A stretch of 64,000 nt of DNA from Eledone cirrhosa (Eukaryota), in contig OZ024741.1 in the NCBI GenBank assembly GCA_964016885.1, forward strand, positions 99,014,001-99,078,000, read 5' to 3'. Shown here piece after piece: positions 7,375-63,187 of this stretch (position 1 is its first letter; each line of letters begins with the position of its first letter). A program made the position numbers and the translations under genes. Under the pieces are notes generated by a model that was given only the letters and a program-made list of their open reading frames with translations, was not told the origin of the DNA and ran no database searches.

Positions 7375-7453
7375 TAGTGTAGCTCACTCGGTAGAGCATC
7401 CGATTTTTATAGCATATACTCTGAGGGTTTCGGGTTCAAGTCCATCTGTGGGG
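7375..7453 (+). pseudogene. tRNA-Lys(TTT) pseudogene with a deletion in the intron 3' part
   Basis: tagctcactcggtagagcatccgatttttatagcatatact ctgaggg...ggttcaagtcc. Confidence 0.8.
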
Positions 7454-8321
7454 AATATGGTATTTTTTTTTCCTCCAGGAGAGTCTTCGTTGTGAAATAT
7501 GTTTTATACCGCCTTAGTTCCTAATAATTTTATTAACGTTGTTTCACCGATATTTTAATCATTCTGTTAATAACCTATTTCTATTTAACTTCACAGTGTT
7601 ACCTATAAGGATTACAGTTCCAATGACCTGAAATATGAAACACATTAGAAGAGATAATAGAAATCTTAAGTATAATGAAATAATACAGACACAATACTAG
7701 GCGGACAAGCTTGAATTATGTGTAAATAAGTCTTTAACAAGAATAATTTATTTACAAAATATATAGGAAAGTATCGTCTTTCATATATCAGCTTCCAGGC
7801 GTTTCAAAGCGATTCTTGAAAAACTGTAACGACATTGAAATGAATGTGTACACAGCCTATACTTTACAATACTGGGATAACGTTGAATAGACCATACCTT
7901 GCAATTCACACAACGATGCTACATGTATGTTTAATATATGTACTATTAAATCGTTTTCGAGTGAACTACGTCACATTGCTCCAGTCGGTACAGCTTCAAT
8001 GCGCTAAAGTATCTGTAGCCAAGGCCTTTCTCTTAATGGATTAGCAGTATCGGTATAGCGTTGGACAATATGCTTTACTGCATAGAGTTACGTTCTAAGT
8101 TCAAATCTCACTGAGGTTAGCTTTGCCTTTCATCTTTGCGGGGTCGATAAAATAAAGTACCAGTAATGCACTGGGTAATTGCTGGCCTTGTGCCAAAAGT
8201 AGAAACAATTATTATGAAATATATATTTTACATGCTAATTACTGATAGTTTCACCTTTTATTTAATTTAATATATTAAAAGCATTACTGTAGTGTAAACT
8301 TTGTCAGTACATTTCATCGTG

Positions 8322-8413
8322 GCTATCAGCCTGTCACTCGATTGAGCATCAACCTTTACAGATTAAAATGTGGAGATATCTGAGTGGCGCGGGTTCAGGT
8401 CCTTCTGTTGTCG
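8322..8413 (+). pseudogene. Old tRNA-Lys relic
   Basis: gagcatcaacctttacagattaaaatgtggagatatctgag...gggttcaggtcc aligns with the family. Confidence 0.6.
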
Positions 8414-8755
8414 ATACAATTATTTTCTTCGAGAAAATATTCATAAAATATGTATTTCACATGTTAATTTTCTGATAGTTTCACCTTTTACTTAATGTAT
8501 TATGTAGTTATTATAAAGTTATATATGACGAACACTGCGAGATCTAGTGTCTCGGCTTGATAAGCGCTTCTTTAAAAATGTAGTATTACGTACATAGTTT
8601 ATTCCAAATAATAAGTATACACAATGATGTATTCTATCCATGAACTTACTTTGAACAAGAAGTCACAGTATACAAAAGCTAAATCTTTGTCGTGCGAAAT
8701 ACGTGACTAGTATATCGCATCACATCTGAAAATAAAGACATCCTAACTATGTACC

Positions 8756-8847
8756 GTCGGCATAGCTCAGTCGGTTGAGTATCAGGTTTTTATAGATTCA
8801 GCTGTGAAGATAACTGAGGGCCGCGGATTCAAGTCCTTCTGCAGGCG
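8756..8847 (+). pseudogene. Intron-containing tRNA-Lys(TTT) pseudogene
   Basis: 92 nt, colinear with the consensus, many stem-breaking substitutions. Confidence 0.8.
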
Positions 8848-9803
8848 AAGAATTTTTTATGGGAGACTTCAAATGAAATACGTTTTATACATCTTAAGTT
8901 CCTCATAATTTTAGTTTTTATTGTTTAATGTTGTCTCTCGGGTATTTTAATTACTTTATTGATAACTTATTCTCATTTAACATTATAAGGTTACATATAT
9001 TATGAAAACATTAGAAGATGTAATCGAAATCTCGGAACAGAATAATAGCTTTGCGCGTGGGGCGCGGCTGAGACACCGCTCAACTGGAGTTTAATGTCTG
9101 TCTTATCCCCTCTGTCTTTCTTTCGATACTTGATCCTGTTTTTTTTCTTATTATTATTTACTTTTTTCTTCCCTTTTTTGTTCCCTTTAAAAGTGTATTT
9201 TTGTTTTTTATTAGACACTGCTCAATTATTTCTGTGTAATTATATCCTATAAATAAAAGTTTCTTTATTAGTTAAACAAAAGTATGGAGTTCAGTGAAAA
9301 AGAAGTTATGTATTGTTCTGACCTAGTTTCTAATAGCAGCGAGGTCAAATCTCAACTTGAGCAAAATTATTTATTATAAGATGTATCGAGTCGCAATCAT
9401 GAAAATAAATATCTGGCTTATATTTTGTCTTAATAAAGTTAAGACAGCAGAATAACTGGCGCAAAATTTGAAAATAGTATCACAACAATATTATTCGTTA
9501 AGGCGAGAAACATACATTATACATCGCTAGTGAGAGTTACATCTCGGAAATTCAGACGTAGCCTGGAAAATGTTATTCCTACTGATAATAAGTATATACA
9601 CTGATGTACTCTATCTATGAAGTTACTCTGGGTAAGTAAAACGATACAAAAGTTAAATCTCCCTAGTGCGAAATACGTAACTGATATATTCCATCTGATC
9701 TGAAAAGTAATCTGATCTGAAAAGTTAATGTGGAGAATATGATTTTTATAGATAATTAAAAATGTCAAAATATTTTCCATAAATAGGAAAAAAAAAATTG
9801 CTT

Positions 9804-9895
9804 CGCCCGCAGAGGGACTTGAACCCGCGACCCTCAGATACCATCACATTTGAAACCGTAAAAGTCTGATGCTCTACCGACTGAGCTATGCGGGC
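9804..9895 (-). tRNA. tRNA-Lys(TTT) with 19-nt intron, intact
   Basis: Exons match the consensus GCCCGCATAGCTCAGTCGGTAGAGCATCAGACTTTTA / ATCTGAGGGTCGCGGGTTCAAGTCCCTCTGCGGGCG; intron cggtttcaaatgtgatggt; downstream oligo-T. Confidence 0.93.
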
Positions 9896-10943
9896 GGACA
9901 TGTTTGTGGTGTCAGTTATAGTCTTTACTTCTCAAATAAGATGGGACATATCTGTAATACATTCGTATTATGGTGGTGGGTTGGCAGTGTCGGTAGAGGG
10001 TCGGACGCCATGCTTAGCAGCATCGAGTTACGGCCTTTTCAGTCTCAATTCAAATCCCGCCGAGGTTACCTTTGCCTTTCGTCCACAATATAGTGTTTGA
10101 AGATTGTGGTTTAAATATCTATTGCATCAATTATCGTCTTTACTTTTCAGATAAGATGGGACATATCTATGTAGGAATAATATTTTTGAGGTTCTGTTTG
10201 GGTTTCGGAGATGTTACTCTCACTAAAATGTATTTCGAGACATTTTAATTTCTCGCCTTAGCGAATAATGTTGTGATAGTAATCCATCAACGGACTGAAC
10301 CTGGAGAATGCTGAATGTTGCCAGTTAAAGTATCTCAAACGGCGAATGGGAAATTCTTTTTTTTGTTCTTCAACCTTGTCCACAATCATTTATGAAATAG
10401 GTTTTATACATCCTACATTTCTGAAAATTTCGTCAAAAATTGTACAAGAAATCTGAGTGTTTCAGGTTCAAGTCACTCATCGAACGAAGAGAATTTTTTT
10501 TTTTTTGTGGTTGGGCGGGTATCATGAAGGTAGTTAGTATTCATTATGAAATAGGTTTTATACATTCGAACTTTCGGATATTTTGAACATTTGTTTAAGG
10601 TTATCTCAAAGATTTGTTGATCATATCATCTATACTCTAATTCACTCTATCCCTATAAAGTTACATATGAAAAGAAACACAAAATATTTAACAAAATGAA
10701 ACATGTGCAACTGTTACACTTTCAATGACTTGAAATATGAAACAAATTAGAAGACGTAATTGATATTTTAAACATAATAAAATGTTAAATACATACACAA
10801 TAGTTGTCAAGCTTGCAACGTATAAATTTGCCTTCGACAAAAATAGTTTATGTACGAAATCTATAAGAAAATATTGTCATATTTATCTTAACATCTCGGC
10901 TTAATTAAGCGATTCCTTACAAATGTAATTATATCAACTTATA

Positions 10944-11265
10944 AGGGCGGTGGATTGGCGGTATTGGTAGAGGGTCGGACGCCATGTTTTCCAGCAAAGA
11001 GTCACGTCCCTTTACGGTCTGAGTTCTAATCCCGCCAAGGTTAACTTTGCCTTTCATCCTTTCGGAGTCGATAAAATAAAGCACCAGTAATGCACTGGGA
11101 TAATTCCTGGCCTTGTGCCAAATGTAGAAACAATTATTTCAACGTATAGAGCGCTGGACACTTGCTTTGTGAAAATAAAGTACCAGTAATGCACTGGGTC
11201 GATTTAATCGACTTTCCCTTCCCCCCAAATTCCTGGCCTTGTGCCTATAGTAGAAATCATTATTT
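10944..11265 (+). mobile_element. Two tandem SINE copies
   Basis: gggcggtggattggc head with A/B boxes; separated by ttatttcaac target-like repeats. Confidence 0.8.
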
Positions 11266-11537
11266 CAACCTATAACTATACTATTTTCACATCAATATTA
11301 TTGGCTATGTCGAGAAATTAAAATCTCACCAAATACATTATACATCGTTAGTGAGATATAATCGACGAAACTCAAACAATATCGAAAATGTTATTTCTAC
11401 AAATAAACTTATGTATTCTATTTATGAAGTTACTCTGGGCAAAAGATACAACTGTTAAATCTCCCTAGTGCCAAATATTTAATATATTCCATTTTATTTG
11501 AAAAGTAAAGACTATAATTGACAATGTGAATATGTCC

Positions 11538-11629
11538 GCCCGCATAGCTCAGTCGGTAGAGCATCAGACTTTTACGGAATCAAATGTAAAGATATTTGAG
11601 GGTCGCGGGTCTAAGTCTCTCTACCGGCG
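11538..11629 (+). pseudogene. Intron-containing tRNA-Lys(TTT) pseudogene
   Basis: Intact 5' exon; B box mutated (ggtctaag) and acceptor-stem mismatches. Confidence 0.85.
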
Positions 11630-11634
11630 AATAT

Positions 11635-11775
11635 TTTGAATAGCTTCCTGCATTCAGCGTTAGCGGCCTTCATTCGGTAATCAACGTCTTTTTCAGCAGT
11701 GGCATTTGATGTTAGTACGATGCAAAGGAATGAAAATTGTTCGGCATCCTCCGAGTCCAGTCCGTTGATGGATTA
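11635..11775 (-). mobile_element. RTE-like LINE fragment
   Basis: Translates as EQFSFLCIVLTSNATAEKDVDYRMKAA; homologous to 23625-23690. Confidence 0.55.
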
Positions 11776-12054
11776 CTATCACAACAATATTATTTGCCTT
11801 TCATCCTTATGGAGTCGATAAAATAAAGTACCAGTAATACACTGGGTAATTGCTGGCCTAGTGCCAAAAGTAGAAACAATTATTTGTTAAGGCGAGAAAT
11901 TAAAATCTCATAAATTATAGTTTACATCATTAGTGAAATTTACATCTACGAAACTCAAATAGAATCTTTAACATATAATTCCTACAATTAATAAGTATAT
12001 ATGTCCCATCTTATCTGAAAAGTAATGACCATAATTGACGTCACAAATATGTCC

Positions 12055-12146
12055 GCCCGCGTATCTCAGTCGGTAGAGCATCAGACGTTTAGAGACTCAA
12101 ATGTGAAGGTAACTGAGGGTCACGGGTTCAAGTCCCTCTGCGAGCG
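12055..12146 (+). pseudogene. Intron-containing tRNA-Lys(TTT) pseudogene
   Basis: 92 nt with several substitutions, including U33G. Confidence 0.85.
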
Positions 12147-12434
12147 AATCTACGCTTTTTTTTTTTTATTTATAGAAAAATATTTTGACATTTATTTGTA
12201 ATTATGTATAAAGGTCATGTTTTACAGGTGAAATTTCTGAAAGCTTAAGTTTTTATTTAACATTATTGCACATCATTTTTAATCTCTACATTTGTGGTGA
12301 CGAACAAAATAAAATTATCACTATGTTATTGTCACTGTAATATTTCCTGTCCAATGTGACGAATAAATCTCACCTAACATATAATTTATTGCACATCCTT
12401 AGTGAGATTTGAAACCAACATCCTCAAACATTAT

Positions 12435-12775
12435 ATCAGTTCAACATTTTTTCCAGCCTGTGGCGTTTGAGACGTTTGGTGGACTTGGGCCGCTGAGAGC
12501 GAAGTTCTTGTCTTCACTGGCGGCTCACTTTACTGAGGTGCCAGGTGATGCCTGTGAGGATGCCTGGTTATTTCAGCGCCTTAGCCTCACCATCACCCCG
12601 TGGTAATGCTGCGAGCGTGTTATCTTGCCTGGAAGTGTGCAGTTAACCTCTAAGGTATGAGATGCGGCCGATTATCACACTTCGTGGCGAACTCCCCCCC
12701 CCCCCCCTTTTCCCCTTCTTTTTTCCTTTATCAATTTTGTTCAATGAATTTATATTATTGTGTTATTATAAACGG
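12435..12775 (+). mobile_element. CRE-like non-LTR retrotransposon 3' fragment (RLE C-terminus plus 3' UTR)
   Basis: FQPVAFETFGGLGP...AWLFQRLSLTI.RGNAASVL motif; paralogous copies at ~15810-16170, ~17800-18000 and ~23890-24225. Confidence 0.75.
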
Positions 12776-13030
12776 GTTAGGTGGCATAGAGGAGCGGGAG
12801 TTCTTATTCATTTATGATATATGTTTTATCATCGCAATTTTCTGATACTTTCATATTTTAAGGTTACATTATACATCGTTAGTAAGTTACATATACGAAA
12901 CTCAAACGGAACAACGAAAATGTTATTATATATAAATGTTGAATCTCCCTAGTGCAGAATACCAAACTGATATATTCCCTTTTTATCTTTAATGTAAAGA
13001 CTATAACAGAGCTCTAATGTCAAGACTATA

Positions 13031-13122
13031 ACCCGCATAGCTCAGTCGGTAGCGCATCAGACTCTTACAGATTCTAATGTGAAGGTATCTGAGGATCGTT
13101 GGTTCAAGACCCTCAGCGGTCG
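13031..13122 (+). pseudogene. tRNA-Lys pseudogene with the anticodon changed to CTT
   Basis: TCAGA-CT-CTT-A-intron; also G1A and changes in the D- and T-stems. Confidence 0.8.
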
Positions 13123-13774
13123 AATTTTTTTTTTTTTTTTCATTTATGGGGAAATTTTGATATTTATTTATATATATGGATAAAATGCATATTCTATATA
13201 TTAAATTTCTGATAGCTTAAGTATTTATTTAATGTTATTGTACATCTCTCATAATCTGAACGTTCCATGGTGATGTCTAACACTTAAAAATTTGTTGTGA
13301 CAAACAGAATAATATTGGTGTACGCAACAGAGAGACGGAGTGTTTTTTAGCCTCTCCTTAAAATCAGTAGCTTACTACACAGACTGACTGACCCCAAAGT
13401 CACCAACAATCACACAACAACATCCTAAAAGCATCTATCTTTCTATATCAACACACCACGTTTTACCCACAAATCTGTAAGTACATTTTAAAAAATACTT
13501 TAGAAAAAATTCTTTACTATTATTATTTTCTGTAACTACAAATTTTTCACTAAAGCCACATGTCCTGCACGAACACATATTCACCTGATCCGGAAAATAA
13601 AAATCCTACGAAATACATTATATATCGTTAGTGTTAGTTACATCTACGAAATTCAGACGTAACCTGGAAAATGTTATTCCTATTGATAATGAGTATATAC
13701 ACCGTGGTATTCAATCTGTGGGTAAATGAAAATATACAATGTTAAATATTATAATTAACCCAGTGAATATGTCC

Positions 13775-13841
13775 GCCCGCATAGCTCAGTCGGTAGAGCA
13801 TCAGACTTTTACAGATTCAGATGTGAAGGTATCTGCGGGCG
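13775..13841 (+). pseudogene. tRNA-Lys(TTT) pseudogene, T-arm deleted
   Basis: ...gaaggtatctg|cgggcg: 25-nt deletion between two TCTG repeats. Confidence 0.85.
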
Positions 13842-14344
13842 AATTGTTTTTTTGTTTTTTTTTTCATTTATGGGGACATTTTGATATCTATTTGTATTTA
13901 TGAATAAAATGCATATTCTATATATTAACTTTCTGATAATGTTATTGTACATCTCTCAATAATTGAAAGTTCCATGGTGAAGTCCAACACGTAAACATTT
14001 GTGGTGACAAACAATAAAATTATAACTATCTTAATGTCACTGTAATATTTCTTGTCCAATGAGACGAATACATCTCACTGAACATAAAACATATTAATTA
14101 TCCTTAGGGAGATTTTTAACCACAATCCTTAAACACAACACCAAAATATTTAATCCTCCAATGAGAAAGTATTCAACATACTGTATTGTATATATGAAAC
14201 AACTGACTTTCTATATAAGGTGAGTGTAAGCAAAAGCTAATTCTCCTTATCTAGATCGGCGTATCTTGTCTTGTCTGAAAATAATTATTTCTACTTTAGG
14301 CTTGTCTGAAAATAATGACTGAAAGGATGGACGAAGCTTGTGAC

Positions 14345-14436
14345 CACCGAATGTATTAGTTGGAAGAGCATCAGGTTTTACAATATATATTGTGAAGGTA
14401 TCAGAGAGTTTCCAGTTCAACTAACTCAAACGGCGA
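14345..14436 (+). pseudogene. Old tRNA-Lys relic (paralogs at ~18345-18440, ~22385-22470, ~33390-33481)
   Basis: agagcatcaggttttacaatatatattgtgaaggtatcagagag retains the anticodon arm and intron end. Confidence 0.6.
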
Positions 14437-15433
14437 ATGGGAAACGTATTTTGAGGCGGGGGTCTTCAATCTTGCCCATATTCATTTATGAATAGGTTTT
14501 ATACATCCCAAGTTACTGATATTTTCGTCAAGAATTGTATAAGAAATCTGAGTGTTTCAGGTTCAAATCACTCAACGAGAGAAGATAATCTGTTTTTGGT
14601 GGTGGGGTGGGTGTCATGAAGGTAGTTAGCATTCATTATGAAATATGTTTTATACATCCTAATTTTCTGATAATTTTAATTTTTCGATTAAGGTTATCTC
14701 ACAGATTATTGATAATATTATTAATACACTATTCCACACTATCTTTATAAAGATACATATGAAAAGAATCACGAAATATTTAACAAAATGATTTTAGATA
14801 TGAAACAATTTAGAAGACAATCGAAATCTTAAATATAATAAAATGTTAAATGCATACACAATACAAGTTGTCAACTTTACAACGTGTCAAGTTTACAACT
14901 TTCGACAAAAATAGTTTCTGTACGAAATCTATATGAAAATATTGTCATATTTATCTCAGCATCTCGGCTTATTTAAGCGAATCATTACAAATTGTATTAT
15001 TTCAATTGGCAGTATTGGTAGAGGGTCGGACACCATGCTTTGACGCATAGAGTTACGGCCCTTGCCATTCTGAGTTCAAATCCCGCCGAGGTTAACTTTG
15101 CCTTTCATCCTTACGGGGTCGATAAAATAAAGTACCAGTAATGCACTGGGTAATTGCTGGCCTTGTGCCTAACGTAGAAATAATTATTTCAACATATAAC
15201 TATATTATTATCACATCAATATTAAAATCTCGCGAAATATATTAAAATCTCGCGAAACTCAAACAGAATCTCGAAAATGTTATTTCTACAAATAAACTTG
15301 TTTTCTATCTATGATGCTACTATGGGTAAATAAAGAGATACAAATGTTAAATCACCATAGTGCGGAATACCTTACTGATACATCATATCTTATTTGAAAC
15401 GTAAAAACTATAATTGACGATACAATCATATCC

Positions 15434-15522
15434 GCCCGCATAGCTCAGTCGGTAGAACAGACTTTTACTGATTCAATTGTAAAGATATCTGAGGGTTGCG
15501 GGTTCAAGTACCTCTGCGGGCG
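15434..15522 (+). pseudogene. Intron-containing tRNA-Lys(TTT) pseudogene
   Basis: 3-nt deletion at the D-stem/anticodon-stem junction. Confidence 0.85.
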
Positions 15523-16568
15523 TATTCATTTTCTTTTATGGGGAAATATTTTAACATTTATTTGTAATTAACTATAAAAACCACATTTTATTCGTTAAAT
15601 TTCTGATAGGTTACGTGTTTATTTAACATTATTGCACATCATTTTTAATCTCGACATTCCATGGTGAAGTGTAACACTTAAACATTTGTGGTGATAAACA
15701 GAATAATATTATAACTATGCTATTGTCACTGTAATATTTCTTGTCCAATGTCCATATAATTTATTACACATCCTTAGTGTGATTTGAAACCACAGTCCTC
15801 AACCACTATATATAAATTAATCATTTTTTCCAGCCTGTAGCGTTCGAGACGTTTGGTGGACTTGGGCCGGTGGCAGCGAAGTTTCTTGTCATCACTGGCG
15901 GCTCACCTTACTGAGGTGTCAGGTGATGCCCGCCCGTGAGGATGCCTGGTTATTTCAGCGGCTTAGCCTCACCATCAGTCGTAGTAATGCTGCGAACACG
16001 TTGTCTTGCCTGAAAGTGTGCAGTTAACCCCTAGGGTGTAAGGTGCGGCCGATTATTACACTTGGTGGTATGTTCCCCGCACCCCCAAACGACCCACTTT
16101 TTTACCTTCTGTTTTCTTTCCTTTATCATTTTTGCTCAATGAATTTATATTATTGTTATTATAAACGGTTTAGACATTGTATTTGTAATGTCGTTTTGAA
16201 CGAATTGCGAACAATTTACAATGTTATTTACGTATTTGTTATGTTATTTATGTATATATTTAAAATATATTTGCAACGTTATTCTACTGTAAATTTATAC
16301 AATTTCTATATTAAATTGCTGAAAAGAAAAACCCACTATATTCTGGAGATCTCTGTGTGTTGCAGTTACAAATCACTCAGCATACGAAGAACATTCTTAT
16401 AATATTTATGTTAGGTGGCACGGGGGTCGGGGAGTTCTTTTTCATTCATGATACGCGTTTTATCATCGCAATTTTCCGATACTTTCATAATTTAGGGTTG
16501 CATTTTACATCGTTGGCGAGAGTTACATCTACGAAACTCAAGAGGAACAACGAAATGTTATTCCTACA

Positions 16569-17332
16569 AATAATTGTTTCTACTTTTGGCACAAGTACCC
16601 AGTACATTACTGGTACTTTATTTTATCGACCCCGTAAGGATGAAAGGCAAAGTTGACCTCGGCGGGATTTGAACTCAGAATGGAAAGGGCCGTAACTCTA
16701 TGCGTCAAAGCATCACGTCCGACCCACTACCGATACTGCTAATCCACCACAAATAATGGTTTCTCATTTAGGCACAAGGCCATTAATTTTGGGGAAAGGA
16801 AAGTGGATTAAATCGGCCCCAGTGCGTTACTGGTACTTTATTTTATTGACCTCGTAAGGATGAAAGGTAAATCTAACCTCGGTAGGATTTCAACTGAGGA
16901 TGATAATTTTATGCAGCAAAGCATGGTGTGTGACGCTCTACTGATACTGCCAAACCACCGTCCTGTTATTCCTACAAATAGTGGTTTCTACTATAGGCAC
17001 AAGGCCAGCAATTTTGGAGGAGGGGAAAGTCGATTAAATCGACCCCAGTGCGTGACTGGTACTTTATTTTATCGACCCCATAAGGATGAATTGCAAAGTT
17101 ACCCTCAGTGGGATTTGAACTCAGATCATAATGGGCCGTAATTCTATGCTGCAACGCATGGCGTCCAACCCCCTAACGATACTGCCAATCCACCGTCCTG
17201 TTATTCCTACAAATAATTGTTTCTACTTTTGGCACAAGGCCAGCAATTACCCAGTGCGTTACTGGTACTTTATTTTATCGACCCCGTAAGGATGAAAGGT
17301 AAAGTTAACCTCGGCGGGATTTGAACTCAGAA
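16569..17332 (-). mobile_element. Four tandem SINE copies at one site
   Basis: Copies separated by repeats of (tgttattccta)caaataa. Confidence 0.8.
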
Positions 17333-17417
17333 TTCCTACAAATAATAAGAATGTATTACAGATATGTCTCATCATATTTGATAAGTAAAGACTATAATTG
17401 ACGCAGTAAATATGTCC

Positions 17418-17509
17418 GCCCGCATAGCTCAGTCGGTAGCGCATCAGACTTTTACAGATTATAATGTGAAGGTATCTGAGGGTCGCGGGTTCAAGTCCCT
17501 CTGCGGGCG
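17418..17509 (+). tRNA. tRNA-Lys(TTT) with 19-nt intron, near-intact (A23C)
   Basis: One D-stem mismatch against the consensus; oligo-T terminator follows. Confidence 0.8.
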
Positions 17510-51890: not shown

Positions 51891-52899
51891 GGACAATATT
51901 CTAGCTGTCACTTAGACTCTTTATTTTTAAATAACACAGGATAGATAACAATAAGACTTCATATTTTCAGATATGATGGGATATATCAGTGACATATTTC
52001 ATGTTACGGATATATAATATTTTAATTTTACCTCCTTACCCATAGATAGAACACATCATTGTGTTTACTTACTACTGATATTGCTGATATTTGCCAGGTT
52101 TCATTTCAGTTCCGTCCGTGTAATTCTCGCAAGTGATGTGTAGTGTATGTTCTATTTGGTGAAATTTAAATTTCTCGCCTGAGTGAATATTCTTGTGATA
52201 ATAATATAGTAATATGATGACATTTTGCGGTAGTTATTCTGCTGTCTTAATTGTTTTATACCTTAATTTATTAAAATATAGTTTAAGGATAGATATGTAG
52301 CAGTTGCCTCTCTTGTTGTGACTCACAACCCCAATAGATTAACAACATCTAGACGGGAAGTAGAACCCCTTCTGTAACTTCCGGTCAGAACCCTATAAAA
52401 CTAACAACTTTAAGTTCTCACCCTCTCATTTGCCCTTCCGGCGCCTGGCCTTCGCCAGGCGTCTTCTGCCAGCCTGCGTTTGCCTGGCAATCAAAACGGT
52501 AACTACTAACTTTGCTTCATTCTTTCGTTTATTCATTGACATGTCAACTATACTGTTAAATTGTTGATTAAATATTATACACACAAACCATGTCTCTTTG
52601 TTACATTCATACACACGAGTTCTCCGCTATAGATATTTTTTGACGATTGTGTTTCAAAAAATGTTATAATAAATTATATTACTCACGGCTCTTAGTCACT
52701 TGTTAAGAATAAAATCTCTCATCCTGTTCCTCTTAAAGCATTGAACATACTCTACACGAGTAGATTAGTGACAACTTCAGAAGCACAAGGATTAGATCTC
52801 GTAACAGTAAACTAAAATTAAGTAAATAGTGAAATGATCAGTAAATTAACATGCGAAATACGTATTTTATAAATACTTTCACGAATAAAAGAATTACTT

Positions 52900-52991
52900 C
52901 GACAAAAGAGGTCCTTGAACTCGTGACCCTCAGATACCTTAACAGTATAGGTTATAAAAGTCTGATGCTCTACCGACTGAGCTATGCGGGC
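52900..52991 (-). pseudogene. Chimeric tRNA-Lys: intact 5' exon and intron joined to a relic T-arm/acceptor
   Basis: The sequence switches within gtc from the consensus gene to the 39137-type relic. Confidence 0.85.
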
Positions 52992-54574
52992 GGACAATAT
53001 TCTAGCTGTCACTTAGATTCTTTATTTTTAGATAACACAGGATAGATTAGTCAGGCGTAGTTAACAATAAGACTTCATATTTTCAGATATGATAGGATAT
53101 ATCAGTGACATATTTCATGTTACGGATATATAATATTTTAATTTTGACTTCTTATCCATAGATAGAACACATCATTGTGTTTACTTACTACTGATATTGC
53201 TGATATTTGCGAGGTTTCATTTCAGTTCCGTCCGTGTAATTCTCGCAAGTGATGTGTAGTGTATGTTCTATTTGGTGAAATTTAAATTTTTCGCCTGAGT
53301 GAATATTGGTGTGATAATAATATAATAATATGATGACATTTTGCGGTAGTTATTCTGCTGTCTTAATTGTTTTATACCTTAATTTATTAAAATATAGTTT
53401 AGGATAAATATTTTTTGACGATTGTGTTTCAAAAAATGTTATAATAAATTATATTACTCACGGCTCTTAGACACTTGTTAAGAACAAATCTCTGATCCTG
53501 TTCCTCTTAAACCATGTAGTTGACTATTGAACATACTCTACACTAGTAGATTAGTGACAACTTTAGAAGCACAAGGATTAGATCTCGTAACAGTAATCAA
53601 AAATTAAGTAAATAGTGAAATGATCAGTAAATTAACATGCGAAATACGTATTTTATAAATACTTTCACGAATAAAAGAATTACTTCGACAAAAGAGGTCC
53701 TTGAACTCGTGACACATAGAAAGTTTCACAGATTTAACATATTTTCAGACTCGATGGCATATATGTTACGTATTTTGCACTACGGAGTTTTAATTTTTAT
53801 ATGATTTCTCTTACCCAGACTAACTCCATAGATAGGATACATCAACATGTATACTTACTATTTGGAAGACCAACCTAGTCGAGGTTAACTTTGAGATTAG
53901 TCGGTGTACTTCTCACTAGCAATGATTAATGGATTTGGGAATATTGTAATTGTTTGCCTTAGGGAATAATATTGTTGTGATAATAATAAGTTATATAGTG
54001 AGATATAACTTATATTATTATCACTCGCATAATCAAATCCAAAATCAGATATATAAGAGACAATATTATAAATATTGTACATGAATATATTATTGTCGGA
54101 GCCATATTTATACACAGTGCAAGTTTGACAAATAGTATTGTGTATGCATTTATCATTTAATTGTGTTTAAAATTTTGATTATGTCTTCTAATCTGTTTCA
54201 TATTTCAAGTCATTGAATGTGTAACACTTGTACATGTTTCATTTTGTTCTTCTTATCGTGTCCACAAGAGTGTCAGTTACAGAGCTTGGTTAGATGTGAT
54301 TTCCAAGTAGAACATACACTACACATCGCTTGTGAGAATTACACGGACGAAACTCCAATGGAACCTCGCAAAGATCAGCTATATGAGTAGTAAGTAAACA
54401 CAACTATGGATAAGAAGTCAACATATAAAATATTTGATATCCGTAATTCGAAATATGTGACTGATATATCCCATCATATCTGAAAATATGAAGTCTTATT
54501 GTTAACTTCGCCTGACTAGTCTATCCTGTGTTATCTTAAAATAAAGAGTCTAAGTGACAGCTAGAATTCTATCC

Positions 54575-54666
54575 GCCTGCATAGCTCAGTCGGTAGAGCA
54601 TCAGACTTTTATAGCATATATTATGAAGGTATCTGAGGGTCGCGGGTTCAAGTCCCTCTGTGGGCG
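54575..54666 (+). tRNA. tRNA-Lys(TTT) with 19-nt intron (two G-U pairs in the acceptor stem)
   Basis: Identical to 49196-49287. Confidence 0.82.
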
Positions 54667-55708
54667 AATATAATTTTTTTTTTTCGTGTGAGGCTTTGTA
54701 GTTTGTAGTTGTTTATGAAATATCTTTTACACCTCCTACGTTCGTGATAATTTTTAACGTTGTTTCACTGATATTTTAATCATTCTGTTAATAACCTATT
54801 CCTATTTAACTTTATAGTGTTATCTATAAGGATTACAGTTCCAATGACCTGAAATATGAAACACATTAGAAGAGGTCATAGAAATCTTAAGTATAATGTA
54901 ATAATTGTTTCTACGTTAGGCACAAGGCCAGCAAATACCCAGTTTATTACTGCTACTTTATTTTATCGACCCCGTAAGGATGAAAGGCAAAGTTAACCTC
55001 GACGGGATTTGAACTCAGAATGGCAAGGGCCGTTGAAATAATAAAGATGTATCACATCTAGGCGGACAAGCTTGAATTGTGTAAATAAGGAAAGAAAGAA
55101 GAAGAACCGGAAGGGTAGGGGATGACAATAGCTCTGGTGTTGGAGAAGAGAGGGGGTGGGGGGTGAGGGTGATTGATCTTTGGGCCTAGGTCAACAGGAC
55201 AGAAGTGCTGCGCTCCGCTGACAAGACGGCAAAAGTATTCCCCCTGACGATGGTCAATGACAGCCGCTGCAACAACCAGCCGATCACGCGGGGCTCCCTC
55301 CTGTGACGAGCCGCTGACGCTACGATCTTGCGGAGGAGCTCGGCAGTATGGGGTACAAGTACGTCTGATGTCTCAATGGTGACCGGTGCCTAGAGGAAGC
55401 GGCCGGAAAAACCCGGTATATGTTTATTTTGCGTTCTTCTGCGAAGCAGGCTGCAATGCCGGGGTTTGTGGCCGAAGCGACTAAGTTGGAGGCGGAACCT
55501 CGCAAAGATCAGCTATATGAGTAGTAAGTAAACACAACTATGGATAAGAAGTCAACATATAAAATATTTCATATACGTAATTCGAAATATGTGACTGATA
55601 TATCCCATCATATCTGAGAATATGAAGTCTTATTGTTAACTTCGCCTGACTAGTCTATCCTGTGTTATCTTAAAATAAAGAGTCTAAGTGACAGCTAGAA
55701 TTCTATCC

Positions 55709-55785
55709 GCCTGCATAGCTCAGACTTTTATAGCATATACTGTGAAGGTATCTGAGGGTCACCGTTTCAAGTCTCTCTGCGTGCG
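55709..55785 (+). pseudogene. tRNA-Lys pseudogene, D-arm deleted; a separate 3' fragment at 55857-55877
   Basis: 15-nt deletion between two TCAG repeats. Confidence 0.85.
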
Positions 55786-56219
55786 AATGCAATTTTTTTT
55801 CCATTAGACTCTTCGTGGTTTGTATTCATTTATGAAATATGTTTTAGATATCCCAAGTTCAAGTCCCTCTGCGGGCGAATATAAGCTTTTTTTTATGAGA
55901 GTCTTTGTGGTTTGTATTCGTTTATGAAATACGTTTTAGATATCCCAAGTTCCGGATAATTTTAGTTTTTGTTGTTTAAGGTTGTTTCAAATATGTTCTA
56001 ATAATTCTATTAAGAACCTATTCCCATTTAACTTTACATTGTTACATATAAGGACTACAGTTCCAATGACCTGAAATATTAAATGCATTTGAAGAGATAA
56101 TAGAAATCTTCAGTATAATGAAATGATAAAGATATACACAGAACTAGACGGACAAACTTGAATTATGTGTAAATAAGTCTTCAGGAAGAATAGTTTATTC
56201 ACAAAATATATAAGAAAGA

Positions 56220-56900
56220 AAATAGGTTTATTTACAATACTTTATAACTTTGCCTATTAATCCGTATGGTGAGCAAAGTGGGGCCACGTGCTGGCCTCCC
56301 CACAGGCCCGGCGGACAGGATGGCGAAGGCGTTTCCCCGGAGGATGGTAAGGGAGATGCGCTGGAAGAGCCATTCCAACTCACGAGGCTCACAGCTGTGG
56401 CTGGCCAGTCCAGCGCCTATGGTGGTGAGTAGGGAGGTAGCCCTAGGGCCAAGGACACCAGAAGTCTCAACTGCCAAGGGCATGTCCACGAATCTGTCGG
56501 AGAGCGACCGGTACTTGGAGAGTTTGGCCTCCTCAGCCCAACGTGCAGCAGAACCTGGGTTAGTCGCAGACTGCACTAGGTTACGGCTGGAGAAAGTGTC
56601 GCTGCAAGTGGCATACCAGACGAGGGCTTTGCCACCGCGGAACGGGAAAATGGTCATACCGTCTGGCCTTTTGCTATCCCTTCGGTCCAGCCCCACCGGC
56701 TCGAGCTGGGAGGGGAAGCCTGCAGCATCCAAGCCATGCTTAATGACCTCGTTGAGGGCAGTGTGGCGTGGAAGGCGGCCAGCACTGTGGCGACAGGAAA
56801 GCGGGTGGTGTCCGAAATAGACCACGGTGGATCCACAGTGACATTTATGTGGCTCGCAGATCCGGAGTCCAAGCCTCAAGGAAACGCCGATGTGCAGGCT
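56220..56900 (-). mobile_element. CRE-like 5'-truncated retrotransposon with an open RLE domain (ORF 56232-56879)
   Basis: CHC...H...C knuckle, RH, RPD, E..K..KY, PLAVETSG and WLFQRISLTILRGN; interrupts aagaaag|tatcgtc, with an empty paralogous site at ~58314. Confidence 0.88.
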
Positions 56901-57074
56901 ATCGTCTTTTATATCTCAGCTTCCGGGCGTTTGAAACGTTTCTTGAAGAACTGTAACAACATGGTAATGAATGCGTACACCGATCAATGTTTACAATACA
57001 GTATTAGGATAACTGTCAATAGATCATACTTTACAATTCACACAATGAGGTCACATATATGATTATTATATGTA

Positions 57075-57735
57075 CTAGCAGAAAAACCAACCTTCGGGTG
57101 GTATCTGCTGGCATATGCAGTGTGTATATTGATATTATACGCAAGTAGATATAGATATTATATGCATGTAGATATGATACATCAAATAAAATCGTAATTG
57201 GCAATATACACAGAAATTGAAAGAAGACTGTGTTACACTCTCTTAAGTAATCAGTAACGTAATCTATGATACATTAAAAAAAGACGATAATATATATAAA
57301 CTGTATTAGGAGAAAATTAGTGACGGAAATATATATATGTTTATTCAAGCGATCGCTAACCGGAAGTTTTGACGTTTGAAAATGTTAAAGAAGTGAATTT
57401 TTAAATAAACAATAATATATATATAATCAACAGCCACGAAATTTAGTAGATAAATTATATAAAATTCATTCATTATTTATTCAAAGTAATAGGGCGGTGG
57501 ATTGGCAGTATCGGTAGAGGGTCGGGCACCATGCTTTCCAGCATAGTTACGTCCCTTTACGATCTGAGTTCAAATCCCGCCGAGGTTGACTTTGCCTTTC
57601 AACCTTACGGGGTCGATAAAATAAAGAACCAGTAATGCACTGGATAATTGCTGGCCTTGTGCCTAAAGTAGAAACAATTATTTATTCAAAGTAATCCAAC
57701 TTATTTTACTAATGGGTTAAAAAAAAAACTTGTTT
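57075..57735 (-). mobile_element. Helitron-like non-autonomous insertion with a nested SINE
   Basis: Minus strand ends in hairpin accacccgaaggttggt then ...CTAG|T; empty paralogous site tgtactatcaaattg at ~58487. Confidence 0.5.
57491..57680 (+). mobile_element. Full-length tRNA-derived SINE with TSD
   Basis: A box tggcagtatcgg, B box gagttcaaatcc; flanked by tttattcaaagtaat direct repeats. Confidence 0.92.
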
Positions 57736-57879
57736 ATCAAATTGTTGCAGAGTAAACTTTATCATATATCTCAGTCGATAGAGCTCAACCTTCTACAGCT
57801 TGATTTTTTTAGATATCTGACTTGTCTATCTTGTGTTATCTAAAAATAATATGTATAAGTGACAGCTCCAATATCGTCC

Positions 57880-57971
57880 GCCCGCATAGCTCAGTCGGTA
57901 GAGCATCAGACTTTTATAGCAAGTACTGTGAAGGTATCTGAGGGTCGCGGGTTCAAGTCCCTCTGCGGGCG
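57880..57971 (+). tRNA. tRNA-Lys(TTT) with 19-nt intron, intact
   Basis: Consensus exons; intron tagcaagtactgtgaaggt. Confidence 0.93.
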
Positions 57972-59768
57972 AATATAAGCTTCTCTTTTTATGAGAGTCT
58001 TTGTGGTTTGTATTCGTTTATGAAATACGTTTTAGATATCCCAAGTTCCGGATAATTTTAGTTTTTGTTGTTTAAGGTTGTTTCAAATATGTTTTAATAA
58101 TTCTATTAATAACCTATTCCCGTTTAACTTCATAGTGTTACTTATAAGGACTACAGTTCCAATGACCTGAAATATGAATCACATTAGAAGAGATAATAGA
58201 AATCTTAAGTATAATGAAATAATAAAGATATACACAGAACTAGGCGGACAAGCTTGAATTATGTGTAAATAGATCTTCAACAAGAATAGTTTATTTACAA
58301 AATATATAAGAAAGTATCGTCTTTCATATCTCAGCTTCCAGGCGTTTCGAAGCGATTCTTCACAAACTGTAACGAGATTGAAATGAATTGCGTACAACGA
58401 TCATATTTTATAATACAATATTAGGATAACTGTAATAGATCATACTTTACAATTCACACAATGAGGCTACATATATGATTATTATATGTACTATCAAATT
58501 GTTGCAGAGTAAACTTCGTCATATATCTCAGTCGATAGAGCTTCAACATTCTACAGCTTGATTTTTTGAGATATCTGTAGCCGATGCAATTCTTTTATAA
58601 GATTTATGAAATAAATATTTTCGGATAGTTTCACCATCTATTTAATTTAATATAGCGTTAACAGAAGGAATTACTATTAAATATCAAAAGCTATCGCTGT
58701 AGTATAAGCCTCATCAGTACCTTTAATCAAGTCTATCCACATAGGTCACTTGGGTGAGAATCAACCTCTTCCAGGTTAAAATGTGGAAATATCTAATTGT
58801 AACATATATCTGTATTATTATCACAATAATTTTCGTGTCTGACAATAAACACAACCAGTACTGTATTCTATATTTGAATCAATTGCCTTTCCTTAGGTGG
58901 TGAAATATTAAGAACAAAAGCTATCGCTGTAGTGAAACCTTTGTCAGTAGTTTTTATCGGTTGACCATCAAACCCAAACTATTAAAAATGTGGAACTTTC
59001 TGTGTGTCACGGGTTCGAGTACCTCTTTTGTCGATGTAATTCTTTTATTCGTGAAAGTATTTATAAAATACGCATTTCGCATGTTAATTTACTGATCTAT
59101 TCACTATTTATTTAATTTATTATACAGTCATTTTAGTTTTTATACAGTTTTGATATGATTACCATTACAATATCTAATCCCTGTTCTTGTGAAGTTGTGA
59201 CTTATCTAATAGTGTAGAGTATGTCCAATAGTCTACTCCATAGTTTCGGAGGAATAAAATCAGAGATGTCTTCTGAGAAAGTTTCTAACAGCAATGAGAA
59301 ATATTATTTATTATAACAATTTTTGAGACAGATTCGTCAAAAAATATCTACCTTAAACTATGTTGCAATAAATTTAGGTATAAAACCAATTAAGACAGCA
59401 GAATAACTACCGCAACATTTTATCATATAACTATATTATTATCACAACAATATTATTCGCTAAGGCAAGAAATTTAAATTTCACCAAATAGAACATATAT
59501 TACACATCGCTTGTGAGAATTACACGGACGAAACTCCAATGGAACCTCGCAAATATCAGCAATATGAGTAGTAAGTAAACACAATGATGTGTTCTAACTA
59601 TGGATAAGAAGTCAAAATATAAAATATTATATATCCGTAACATGAAATATGTGACTGATATATCCCATCATATCTGAAAATATGAAGCCTTATTGTTAAC
59701 TACGCCTGACGAATCTATCCTGTGTTATCTGAAAATAAAGAGTGTAAGTGACAGCTTGAATATTGTCC

Positions 59769-59860
59769 GCCCGCATAGCTCAGTCGGTAGAGCATCAGAC
59801 TTTTATGACGTATATTGTGAAGGTATCTGAGGGTCGCGGGTTCAAGTCCCTCTGCGGGCG
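59769..59860 (+). tRNA. tRNA-Lys(TTT) with 19-nt intron, intact
   Basis: Consensus exons; intron tgacgtatattgtgaaggt; oligo-T terminator. Confidence 0.93.
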
Positions 59861-60000
59861 AATATAATTTTTTTTTCCATGGGTGTCTTCGTGGTTTGTA
59901 TTTGTTTATGAAATATGTTTATATATCCCATGTTCCGGATAATTTTAGTTTTTGTTCTTTAACATTGTTTCACTGATATTATATTCATTCTATTAATGAC

Positions 60001-60093
<93 letters not shown>

Positions 60094-60118
60094 CCCTCTC
60101 TCTCTTTCTCTCTCTCTC
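60001..60118. repeat. (CT)n microsatellite
   Basis: Direct reading. Confidence 0.95.
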
Positions 60119-60119
60119 G

Positions 60120-60575
60120 TGAAGCTAAACTCCGCTAGTTGCAGATGCTCATCAACATGAGATATTTTTCTCCACAAAGTTTCATCACCAGCAGCTGAGT
60201 TTACAGAGCGATGATCAAGTCCAGTCCATAGACTGCCGGCCTCTGCTTCTCTTACCTGCCAATCTTCCTTCCAGGCATAACCTACTCACACCACGAGTTG
60301 ATCTTTTTATATGGCCGTATATTTTGAGTACTCTTGACTTGACAATTCATGTAATTGGTCAAAGTTTGGTAATGTTAAGCAGCTCACTGATACAGATACA
60401 GTTACCTAGACGCTTGCCAGTCATAAGTCTTATGATGTTGTTCTGGAATGTAGAGAGCTTCTGAAGTGACCATGTCGTCCAATTAACACAGTCAAGACCA
60501 TATAACACAACTGGTAGGATGTAATTATCAAAGATCTTAGCCTTCAAATGATAGGAAACTCGTTTTGATTTACAA
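60120..60575 (-). mobile_element. RTE-like LINE 3' fragment ending at the (GA)n run
   Basis: LKAKIFDNYILPVVLYGLDCVNWT motif. Confidence 0.7.
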
Positions 60576-60850
60576 GTAGAACATACACTACACATCACTT
60601 GTGAGAATTACACGGACGAAACTCCAATGGAACCTGACAAAGACCAGCTATATGAGTAGTAAGTAAACACAATGATGTGTTCTATCTTTGGATAAGAAGT
60701 CAAAATATATAATATTTGATATCCGTAATTCGAAATATGTGACTGAAAATTATATCTGAAAATATGAAGTCTTATTGTTAACTACGCCTGACTAGTCTAT
60801 CCTGTGTTATTTAAAAATAAAGAGTCTAAGTGACAGCTTGATTATTGTCC

Positions 60851-60942
60851 GCCCGCATAGCTCAGTCGGTAGAGCATCAGACTTTTATAGCATATATTGT
60901 GAAGGTATCTGAGGGTCGCGGGTTCAAGTCCCTCTGCGGGCG
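60851..60942 (+). tRNA. tRNA-Lys(TTT) with 19-nt intron (60888-60906), intact
   Basis: Consensus exons; intron tagcatatattgtgaaggt; long oligo-T terminator. Confidence 0.94.
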
Positions 60943-62442
60943 AAGATTTTTTTTTTTTTCGTGGGAGGCTTCGTTTATGAAATAGGTTTTATATTTCCTA
61001 AATTCCTGATGATTTTTGGTTTTGTTGCTTAAGTTGTCTCACTGATATTTTAATAATTCTATTAATAACGTATTTTTTTTAAACTTTATAGTGTTACATA
61101 TAAGTGTTGTGTTTTCAGATCAACGTTTGTTTCTTTGGGCAACTGAGCGAGAGTTATTTTTTCTATTGCCTAAATGGGGAGGGATTAGCGATACGCCTTT
61201 ACTTTTACTATCTTTCACGGGGAGGTGCTGAGATGTGAGTGTGAATTCATAAACATTGACGAGAGAATCTGACATGGCGGAAGCATATCTTCGAATAATA
61301 GCTAAGCTACAATGAATAAGACTAGCCTGTTCGTGCCAATGACAACGAGTATTGGGTTCATAATCAAATGCAGTGGTTATCAGCATGTCAAGAATTTGAT
61401 ATTTCACTACTGGAAACCGTTATGTTTAAACAAATCAATGACGATCTTCCCAAGCACCTGCCCGTTCTTACTTGGAAATCCGTACACAACAATAAGGATT
61501 ACAGTTCCAATAACCTAAAATATGAAACACATTAGAAGAGGTAATAGAAATCTTAAGTATAAAGATATATACAATACTAGGCGGACAAGCTTGAATTATG
61601 TGTAAATAAGTCTTCAACAAGAATAGTTTATTTACAAAATATATAGGAAAGTATCGTCTTTTATATCTCAGCTTCCGGGCGTTTCAAAGCGATTCTTCAC
61701 AAACTGTAACGACATTGAAATGAAATACGTACAACGATCATATTTTACAATACAATATTCGGATAACTGTAATAGATCATACTTTACAATTCAAACAATG
61801 AGGCTACATATATGATTATTATATGTACTATCAAATTGTTGCTGAGTCAACTTCGTCATATATCTCAGTCGATAGAGCTTCAACATTCTACAGCTTAATT
61901 TTTTTGAGATACAATTCTTTTATCAGTCGATGCAATTCTTTTATAAGATTTATGAAATAAATATTTTCGGATAGTTTCACCATCTATTTTATTTAATATA
62001 GTGTTAACAGAAGGAATTACTATTAAATATTTCCAGTTTTTAATACTATTAAATATTAAAAACTATCGCTGTAGTATAAGAATCATCCGTACCTTAAATC
62101 AAGGCTATCCACATAGGTCACTTGGTTGCGCATCAACCTCTTCCAGCTTAAAATGTGGAAATATCTACAGTAGCAACATATTTCTTTATTATTGTCACAA
62201 TCATTTTCGGTGTTGAAAATAAACAGAACCAATACTGTAATCTATATTTGAATCAATTGCCTTTCCTTAGGTGGTGAAATATTAAGAACAAAAGCTATCG
62301 CTATAGTGAAACCATTGTCAGTAGATTTCATCAGTTAGCCATCAAACCCGAAATGTTAAAACTATGGAACTTACTATATGTCACTGGTGCAAGTACCTAT
62401 TTTATAAAAACAATTAAGACAGCAGAATAACTACCGCAAAAT

Positions 62443-62750
62443 TTCTGGTGTCCTTGGCCCTAGGACTACCTACCTACTTACCACCATAGGTGCTGAGCTG
62501 TCTAAACGCATGTGTGAGCCTCGCGAGATACAATGGCTCTTCCAGCGCAGCTCCCTAACCATCCTCCGGGGAAATGCCTTCTCCATTCTGTCCGCCGGGC
62601 TGTGGGACGCCCAGCAAGTGGGACCCCATTCGCTCATAATACAGAGAGATGGGAAGAGCGAGAGAGGTGGAGGCGATGACAGTGGGAGTTCGACACTTCC
62701 GTGTTCGAACACATTTATCAATTCTATGTTGCTGTTGATAATTACGAACG
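62443..62750 (+). mobile_element. CRE-like 3' fragment
   Basis: SGVLGPR...EPREIQWLFQRSSLTILRGNAFSIL; empty paralogous site at ~59415-59430. Confidence 0.8.
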
Positions 62751-63095
62751 AATAAACTATCTTATTATCACGACAATATTATTCGCTAATGCGAGAAATG
62801 TAAATTTCACCAAATAGAACATACACTACACATCGCTTATGAGAATTACACGGACGGAACTGAAATGGAACCTCACAAATACCAGCAATATCAGTAGTAA
62901 GTAAACACTATGATGTGTTCTATCTATGGATAAGAAGTCAAACTAAAAAAATATTTCATATCCGTAATTCGAAATATGTGACTGATATATCCCATCATAT
63001 CTGAAAATATGAAGTCTTATTGTTAACTACGCCTGACTAGTCTATCTCGTGTTGTCAGAAAATAAAGAGTGTAAGTGACAACTAGAATATTGTCC

Positions 63096-63187
63096 GCCCG
63101 CATAGCCCAGTTGGTAGAGCATCAGACGTTTATAACATATATTGTGAAGGTATCTGAGGGTCGCGGTTTCAAGTCCCTCTGCGGGCG
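63096..63187 (+). pseudogene. Intron-containing tRNA-Lys pseudogene
   Basis: T12C, U33G and G53T. Confidence 0.8.

What the first reader, a model, noticed from the sequence alone, without database searches (positions are those of the whole stretch)
7375..63187. Large cluster of intron-containing tRNA-Lys(UUU) genes in an animal genome
Seen: roughly 35-40 copies or relics of one 92-nt gene. Removing 19 nt after A37 gives a 73-nt cloverleaf very close to animal tRNA-Lys(UUU). Seven copies have identical intact exons, A/B boxes and downstream T-runs. Known: human and Drosophila Lys(UUU) genes lack introns (animal tRNA introns are mainly in Tyr-GUA, Ile-UAU, Leu-CAA and Arg-UCU), whereas budding yeast Lys(UUU) has one. 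Inference: a lineage-specific intron gain followed by amplification, creating a splicing-dependent Lys isodecoder pool and a possible source of excised or circular intron RNAs. I cannot confirm novelty without a database search.
Basis: partly seen in the sequence, partly recalled or inferred. Interest (0 to 1): 0.85.

Follow-up and report, generated by a model that had tools for sequence, protein, structure and literature searches.

The report
Cephalopod lysine tRNA genes carry introns
In this animal genome, likely an octopus, every intact gene found for the lysine tRNA that reads AAA codons carries a short intron that the standard tRNA-splicing enzymes likely remove; this intron is not among those usually listed for animals, yet it also turns up in many other, probably animal, environmental DNA sequences.

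Summary
The window holds 38-42 copies or relics of a 92-nt tRNA-Lys(UUU) gene with a 19-nt intron at 37/38; seven have identical exons and 11 are intact. The cluster runs about 32 kb past the window. The intron is not special to the cluster: genome-wide, 49 of 49 intact genes have one, while Lys(CUU) has none (0 of 29). Exons are conserved (2.4% divergence) and introns drift (41%), but all 30 distinct introns keep the G that pairs with C32 for splicing. TSEN2, TSEN34 and RtcB exons are present. The only intronless copy is a dead, retro-copy-like relic that descends from an intron-bearing lineage, a fossil sign of exact splicing. The host is a cephalopod, likely an octopod. 'Lineage-specific gain' is doubtful: 99 of 126 metagenome hits are intron-bearing Lys(UUU) genes of animal type, though their hosts are unnamed. 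No RNA evidence was obtained. Ten literature searches found no report of this intron in animals; GtRNAdb could not be checked. No earlier scan note describes it; one note on another genome (e1-7832861) mentions an intron-bearing family with a Lys copy.

The parts
7373..63187 (.). Part of an ~89-kb array of tRNA-Lys(UUU) genes and relics that lies in the window (42 hits at E<=1e-3: 36 on +, 6 on -); it continues ~32 kb downstream
9804..9895 (-). Intact tRNA-Lys(UUU) gene, majority exons, 19-nt intron
20548..20639 (+). Intact tRNA-Lys(UUU) gene, majority exons, 19-nt intron
31221..31312 (+). Intact tRNA-Lys(UUU) gene, majority exons, 19-nt intron
42773..42864 (-). Intact tRNA-Lys(UUU) gene (C4T), 19-nt intron
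47523..47614 (-). Intact tRNA-Lys(UUU) gene (C4T), part of a 99.5% identical 5.9-kb duplication
49196..49287 (+). Intact tRNA-Lys(UUU) gene (C4T, C68T); its intron is identical to that of the retro-copy-like gene on C4
51799..51890 (-). Intact tRNA-Lys(UUU) gene, majority exons, 19-nt intron
54575..54666 (+). Intact tRNA-Lys(UUU) gene (C4T, C68T); same intron as 49196
57880..57971 (+). Intact tRNA-Lys(UUU) gene, majority exons, 19-nt intron
59769..59860 (+). Intact tRNA-Lys(UUU) gene, majority exons, 19-nt intron
60851..60942 (+). Intact tRNA-Lys(UUU) gene used as reference: 5' exon 60851-60887, 3' exon 60907-60942
60888..60906 (+). 19-nt intron between positions 37 and 38; G at -3 can pair with C32 (A-I pair), followed by three more possible pairs
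60947..60959 (+). T13 run, Pol III terminator-like
17418..17509 (+). Near-intact copy, one D-stem break (A23C)
25040..25131 (+). Near-intact copy with C32T, which turns the A-I pair into U-G
35375..35466 (+). Near-intact copy, anticodon-stem break (A29C)
38023..38114 (-). Damaged copy (G1T, C56A)
40160..40251 (+). Damaged copy (G19A, G59T, C68A); duplicated at 44910-45001
63096..63187 (+). Damaged copy (T12C, T33G, G53T), last one in the window

Best explanation
These are the organism's ordinary tRNA-Lys(UUU) genes, and every intact copy found in the genome carries a short intron at 37/38 that the TSEN/RtcB pathway likely removes, so reading of AAA codons would depend on tRNA splicing. Shown: the gene structure, the intron in 49 of 49 intact copies, the conserved C32:G(-3) pairing potential, and TSEN2, TSEN34 and RtcB exons in the genome. 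Inferred: Pol III transcribes each gene from internal A/B boxes to the T-run; intron bases -3 to -6 pair with anticodon-loop bases 32-35, leaving a 3-nt bulge that TSEN34 cuts; TSEN2 cuts after base 37; RtcB joins the exons. The array grew by segmental and tandem DNA duplication and decays by birth and death, as other tRNA arrays in this genome do. Scattered solo copies are likely retro-copies of primary transcripts. The intron is probably not a cephalopod invention: it likely occurs in many other invertebrates, from one old gain or several.
For: 76 exact hits of a 20-nt 5'-exon motif genome-wide, all fetched: 49 keep the cloverleaf and 0 of 49 lack an intron (45 of 19 nt, 2 of 24, 1 of 17, 1 of 16), on 10 contigs. 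Three searches for intronless copies (exact junction, degenerate junction, BLAST with the spliced relic, best 40 of 94 candidates scored) return only one dead relic. Exon divergence is 0.024 against 0.411 in introns. G at -3 in 30 of 30 distinct introns; A at -5 in 27 of 27 19-mers; 4 or more contiguous loop-intron pairs in 24 of 30. This matches the 4-bp A-I helix starting at C32:G in human TSEN structures (PMC10539383). T-run in 46 of 49. TSEN34- and TSEN2-like exons (E 1e-13 and 1e-11 to solved Sen34 and Sen2) and RtcB exons. The intronless relic on C22 has the 3' trailer of an intron-bearing gene (12 of 13 nt; next best 9 of 13 among 89 copies), shares A49, G58, A70, T4 and a trailer base with intron-bearing L044, and sits in (TA)n. 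A solo copy on C4 has an intron found elsewhere only in five window genes, with only ~5 nt of leader and 8 nt of trailer in common. Controls: Lys(CUU) intronless in 29 of 29 tRNA copies among 30 fetched of 66 hits; Tyr(GUA) intron-bearing.
Against: No RNA evidence at all: no spliced reads, no Pol III data. The fossil of splicing is one locus. ViennaRNA's best fold does not give the canonical A-I register: 3 of 5 pre-tRNAs pair C32 with the -2 base, one slips further, and one pairs the intron internally. Intronless genes could hide in unassembled arrays or have a D-loop outside the patterns used. A fixed 50:64 mismatch weakens the T-stem. Most copies in the window (31 of 42) are damaged. The hosts of the metagenome hits are unnamed.
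Confidence: 0.88

Rival explanations
1. On origin only: the intron was gained in the cephalopod (or octopod) line, independently of the intron-bearing Lys(UUU) genes in other organisms, and then spread to all copies by gene turnover.
For: The introns here resemble the metagenome introns no more than shuffles do (best similarity 0.68; shuffled mean 0.65, max 0.74). The mature body differs by 5-12 of 73 nt from every complete animal-type hit. Human and Aedes aegypti lack it (PMC10275265; PMC11705514). UUU stands 28th and 35th of 45 on the axes of a GtRNAdb-based intron ranking (PMC12168002 Fig. S7, labels only).
Against: 99 of 126 metagenome loci share the first six acceptor bases of this genome's Lys(CUU), have the intron at the same place, and 126 of 126 have G at -3; the near-equivalent set holds 75 distinct introns in 31 similarity groups and 23 distinct bodies. 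Neighbouring tRNAs on some are near-identical to this genome's (Asn 73 of 73; Lys-CUU 71 and 67 of 73). Introns diverge 41% even within this genome, so a lack of similarity cannot reject common descent.
Confidence: 0.35
2. The array is a tRNA-derived repeat or pseudogene family, and the real supply of Lys(UUU) comes from intronless genes missing from the assembly.
For: Most window copies are damaged. The region is full of SINE-like and transposon debris. Tandem arrays can collapse in assemblies.
Against: 16 copies with identical exons carry 13 different introns. There is no SINE tail, only T-runs. Selection on G(-3) is complete. Intact copies lie on 10 contigs. Lys(CUU), Tyr and Asn arrays are assembled in the same genome.
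Confidence: 0.06
3. The genes encode a stop-reading (UUA) or other tRNA through different intron boundaries.
For: ARAGORN without intron search calls three copies tRNA-Stop(tta), one Val and one Tyr.
Against: With intron search on, ARAGORN window genes Lys(ttt) with a 19-nt intron (one further Lys call spans two copies). The intronless relic shows the junction exactly at 37/38 with UUU. The body has G73 like this genome's Lys(CUU).
Confidence: 0.02

Closest known systems
Canonical eukaryotic TSEN-spliced tRNA introns of animals: Tyr(GUA), Ile(UAU), Leu(CAA), Arg(UCU) (PMC10275265, PMC12168002, PMC10539383)
   Same: Position 37/38, short length, C32:G anticodon-intron pair with a 3-nt 3' bulge, variable intron sequence among paralogues, TSEN2/TSEN34/RtcB in the genome.
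   Different: The isotype. Lys(UUU) is not among the intron-bearing families listed for human or Aedes in the passages read. Here it is fixed in 49 of 49 intact genes.
Saccharomyces cerevisiae tRNA-Lys(UUU), one of ten intron-bearing families (PMC6582322)
   Same: Same isotype, intron in every family member, so splicing is obligatory.
   Different: The introns here are heterogeneous (30 distinct), whereas yeast family introns are identical or very similar (PMC10275265). Ligation would be by RtcB, not Trl1. No homology between the two introns was tested.
Homogeneous tRNA gene clusters of animals (PMC2888827)
   Same: Large same-isotype array formed by local duplication, with pseudogenes mixed in.
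   Different: Nothing essential; mean spacing exceeds that paper's 1000-nt cluster cut-off for many pairs.
tRNA retro-pseudogenes
   Same: Solo copies that share only a few nt of leader and the trailer with a parent and run into (TA)n microsatellite.
   Different: These keep the 3' trailer and have no CCA, so they copy precursors; most keep the intron, one has lost it exactly.

Membership tests
Canonical eukaryotic tRNA intron (TSEN substrate) | Inserted between nucleotides 37 and 38 | tested here: met
   intronless relic junction
Canonical eukaryotic tRNA intron (TSEN substrate) | A-I pair: C32 with the third-last intron base, leaving a 3-nt bulge | tested here: met
   G at -3 in 30 of 30 distinct introns; the energy-minimum fold prefers another register
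Canonical eukaryotic tRNA intron (TSEN substrate) | Intact cloverleaf after intron removal | tested here: met
   49 of 76 copies with 7/4/5/4 stem pairs and T-loop
Canonical eukaryotic tRNA intron (TSEN substrate) | TSEN and ligase encoded by the host | tested here: met
   TSEN34- and TSEN2-like exons, RtcB exons; TSEN15 and TSEN54 not searched, full genes not assembled
Canonical eukaryotic tRNA intron (TSEN substrate) | Removed in vivo | tested here: inconclusive
   No RNA data; one retro-copy-like relic with exact intron loss
Functional tRNA-Lys(UUU) gene | UUU anticodon in a 7-nt loop, A/B boxes, Pol III terminator | tested here: met
Functional tRNA-Lys(UUU) gene | Transcribed, charged with lysine | not testable with these tools
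   Retro-copy-like solos suggest past germ-line transcription; charging untested
tRNA-derived SINE | tRNA head followed by a conserved unrelated body and LINE-like tail, very high dispersed copy number | tested here: not met
   T-run directly after the gene; 76 exact-motif copies; exons conserved while introns diverge
Suppressor tRNA (UUA) | UUA anticodon in the mature loop | tested here: not met
   Artefact of a search without introns

The most novel reading that the evidence does not exclude
The Lys(UUU) intron is an old, overlooked fifth animal tRNA intron, kept across much of the invertebrates (cephalopods and many unnamed marine animals) and lost in vertebrates and flies. The textbook animal list would then reflect model-organism sampling, and AAA decoding in these animals would hang wholly on TSEN, possibly with an intron-dependent anticodon-loop modification.
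Probability: 0.35. Interest if true: 0.65.

Novelty: new variant of a known kind. Interest (0 to 1): 0.45.

Why it matters
[quoted passage not shown] An animal in which a whole major isoacceptor family outside the usual four is spliced, with signs of the same state in many other animals, gives a clean comparative test of gain versus loss. It also offers a test of whether the intron steers anticodon-loop modification of Lys(UUU). The intronless relic is a rare snapshot of how an intron can be lost through a reverse-transcribed, spliced precursor. Practically, tRNA-seq references and intron-blind annotation of such genomes will mis-call these genes, even as stop suppressors. The mechanism itself is ordinary.

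Tried and rejected
No RNA holder was listed for a 1.5-kb stretch with two genes (three runs of unknown kind, one study); this is no evidence either way. No reads could be laid, so splicing and expression remain open at read level. The records behind the metagenome loci are not held, so their hosts could not be placed from protein genes. An Rfam search of the whole genome scored only 63 of about 552,000 candidates and gave 16 intronless tRNAs of other types, useless as a census. An apparent intron-bearing tRNA-Asn was an ARAGORN mis-call of Tyr(GUA); true Asn(GUU) in this genome matches an intronless gene end to end. The second 'zero-intron' row (C24) and a hit on C19 are 5' fragments that run into intron-like sequence, not intronless genes. 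The ESM Atlas gave no clade for the host. C167 is not mitochondrial. The idea that the non-animal-type metagenome hits are giant-virus genes was tested with one motif in viral contigs: no match, left open. Five long window ORFs have no Pfam match. Intron similarity could not date the intron. I did not search for Ile(UAU), Leu(CAA) or Arg(UCU) genes, so an origin of the intron from them is untested. Ten paper searches found no report of an animal Lys(UUU) intron.
Full report
Observation. Rfam finds 22 tRNA matches in the window. A profile made from 21 of them finds 34, 38 and 42 copies at E<=1e-10, 1e-5 and 1e-3; five shuffles gave at best E 0.17. Seven copies have identical exons and four more differ only by C4T and/or C68T; all 11 end in a T-run. 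Removing 19 nt after base 37 gives a 73-nt tRNA with a UUU anticodon. ARAGORN with introns on agrees for 16 genes; with introns off it mis-calls three as Stop(tta). The window is G000:C2:99014001-99078000 of a 3.0-Gb assembly. The array spans C2:99021380-99110186 (71 hits), with no hit in the 10 kb upstream. It includes a 1290-bp tandem unit repeated about 17 times at ~99.5% identity past the window, and 2-6-kb duplications inside it.

Host. The genome has molluscan-type hemocyanin genes (39 domain hits). One unit scores 650-659 bits against PDB 6r83, 4yd9 and 1js8, against at most 507 for the others listed. That those three are squid and octopus proteins, and that seven units per gene (as in the C1 genes) is the octopod pattern, is recalled. 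So the host is a cephalopod, likely an octopod.

The intron is genome-wide. An exact 20-nt 5'-exon motif has 76 hits; all were fetched and classified. 49 keep a full cloverleaf and T-loop, on 10 contigs, 24 of them in this array and 11 in the window. All 49 have an intron (16-24 nt). An exact junction motif, a degenerate junction motif and a BLAST with the spliced relic (best 40 of 94 candidates scored) return one intronless copy only, on C22, with 11 differences from the majority sequence and broken acceptor and T stems. Divergent copies missing the motif were not all examined (one search had 122 candidates, 40 scored). As controls, of 66 Lys(CUU) motif hits 30 were fetched: 29 are tRNA copies, all intronless, and one is a SINE-like match. 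Tyr(GUA) genes carry introns, as expected.

Signs of function. Among 30 distinct gene-intron combinations, exons differ by 2.4% and introns by 41%. In the introns only the 3' end is held: G at -3 in 30 of 30, A at -5 in 27 of 27 19-mers, while -2 and -1 vary; 24 of 30 can form four or more pairs from C32 inward. Human TSEN structures show the same geometry, a 4-bp helix starting at C32:G and a 3-nt bulge (PMC10539383, passages). All 16 Drosophila intronic tRNAs have C-G there (PMC6614914, passages). Against this, ViennaRNA's minimum-energy folds do not show the canonical register in any of five precursors tried; the conservation of -3 rather than -2 favours the canonical one. TSEN34-like (C15), TSEN2-like (C21) and RtcB (C6) exons are present.

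Fossils of transcription and splicing (inferred). Of 23 solo copies, five (L002, L008, L009, L011, L047) share an intron and at most a few leader and trailer bases with a gene elsewhere and then run straight into (TA)n, as expected of reverse-transcribed primary transcripts. L047 on C4 has an intron found, among fetched loci, only in window genes 35375, 40160, 44910, 49196 and 54575, which suggests that this array was transcribed in the germ line. The intronless C22 relic keeps a 3' trailer matching intron-bearing C15:1072820 at 12 of 13 nt (next best 9 of 13 among 89 copies). It shares T50, C64 and T68 with that gene, and T4, A49, G58, A70 and a trailer base with a decayed intron-bearing sister, L044. 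It therefore lost the intron, exactly at 37/38. Copying of a spliced, still-trailered precursor is the simplest route. It is one locus, and an exact DNA deletion is not formally excluded.

Breadth. All 126 have G at -3. None has this genome's acceptor stem. 99 of 126 start with the same six bases as this genome's Lys(CUU). A near-equivalent rule on the 123 complete genes gives 99 loci with 23 bodies and 75 introns in 31 groups, 96 with a T-run; that rule admits a few doubtful ones (L097, L118, L175). Neighbours point to animals: an Asn gene on L136 is identical to one here (73 of 73), and Lys(CUU) genes on L120 and L148 match at 71 and 67 of 73. Only these few could be checked, several loci come from related assemblies, and no host is named. 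The rest have other acceptor stems and sit in dense mixed tRNA runs; they are probably not animal. Intron sequences do not link this genome to any of them above shuffle level, so one old gain and several gains cannot be told apart.

What is known. Humans have introns in Tyr(GUA), Ile(UAU), Arg(UCU) and Leu(CAA) (PMC10275265, passages). [quoted passage not shown] A GtRNAdb survey names the same four for animals (PMC12168002, passages), and UUU lies 28th and 35th of 45 on its Fig. S7 axes (supplement labels only, values not visible). Budding yeast Lys(UUU) is spliced; deleting the introns is viable but slows late growth on glycerol (PMC6582322, passages). Large same-isotype clusters are common in animals (PMC2888827, passages). 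PMC4090602 (passages and section 5), PMC8450103, PMC10886601, PMC12257675, PMC10485636 and the planarian preprint 10.1101/2020.08.25.266106 (passages) said nothing on animal Lys(UUU) introns. That Drosophila Lys(UUU) is intronless is recalled. Ten searches found no report; automated annotations in GtRNAdb or RefSeq may well hold it and could not be seen.

Verdict. The feature is real, probably functional and mechanistically ordinary. What is new is the isotype in an animal, its fixation in the whole family, the apparent breadth among unnamed animals, and a fossil of intron loss. The cluster and the 'isodecoder pool' idea add nothing. Interest 0.45.

Noticed in passing
L001:1458-1543 (G000:C22:28601874, minus strand): Intronless, dead Lys(UUU) copy with the 3' trailer of an intron-bearing paralogue, in (TA)n; likely a retro-copy of a spliced but untrimmed precursor, which would mean splicing can come before 3'-end trimming in this animal.
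   Followed up: yes
L001, L044, L057: A58 is changed in three retro-copy-like relics (to G, G and T); possibly a reverse-transcription error at m1A58, but the numbers are tiny and two share ancestry.
   Followed up: partly
all intact copies, positions 50 and 64: A fixed pyrimidine mismatch in the T-stem (C-U in 46 of 49, flipped to U-C in 3); similar mismatches occur in some metagenome bodies.
   Followed up: partly
G000:C2:99080707-99101436 (L033-L035): About 17 tandem 1290-bp units, ~99.5% identical, each with one Lys(UUU) gene: a very recent expansion just downstream of the window.
   Followed up: partly
window 25200-28400: Broken reading frames on the minus strand that look like a decayed Tigger/pogo-type DDE transposase (judged by eye from recalled motifs).
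   Followed up: no
window 28900-30300, 31850-32560, 56230-57060: GC-rich decayed retroelement-like segments; five ORFs tested had no Pfam match.
   Followed up: partly
window, e.g. 10945-11135, 30460-31000: Many copies of a tRNA-headed SINE-like repeat lie between the genes (the likeness to octopus SINEs is recalled, not tested).
   Followed up: no
L097, L175: Metagenome contigs where both Lys(UUU) and Asn(GUU) genes carry introns.
   Followed up: no
L075, L106, L107, L110, L118, L127, L149, L154, L179: Intron-bearing Lys(UUU) genes in dense mixed tRNA runs of non-animal type, possibly giant viruses; one motif found nothing in viral contigs.
   Followed up: partly
G000:C4:79.56-79.62 Mb and 128.67-128.74 Mb; C1:49.30-49.40 Mb; C4:117.36-117.42 Mb; C1:243.65-243.68 Mb: Other same-isotype arrays: Lys(CUU), Tyr(GUA), Asn(GUU) and Thr.
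   Followed up: partly
L195-L197, L200-L202: Six dispersed tRNA-Ala(GGC)-like copies; this anticodon is unusual in eukaryotes (recalled), perhaps a tRNA-derived repeat.
   Followed up: no
window 9803, 17417, 20547: ARAGORN without intron search calls these genes tRNA-Stop(tta); apparent ochre suppressors in other animal genomes may be the same artefact.
   Followed up: yes
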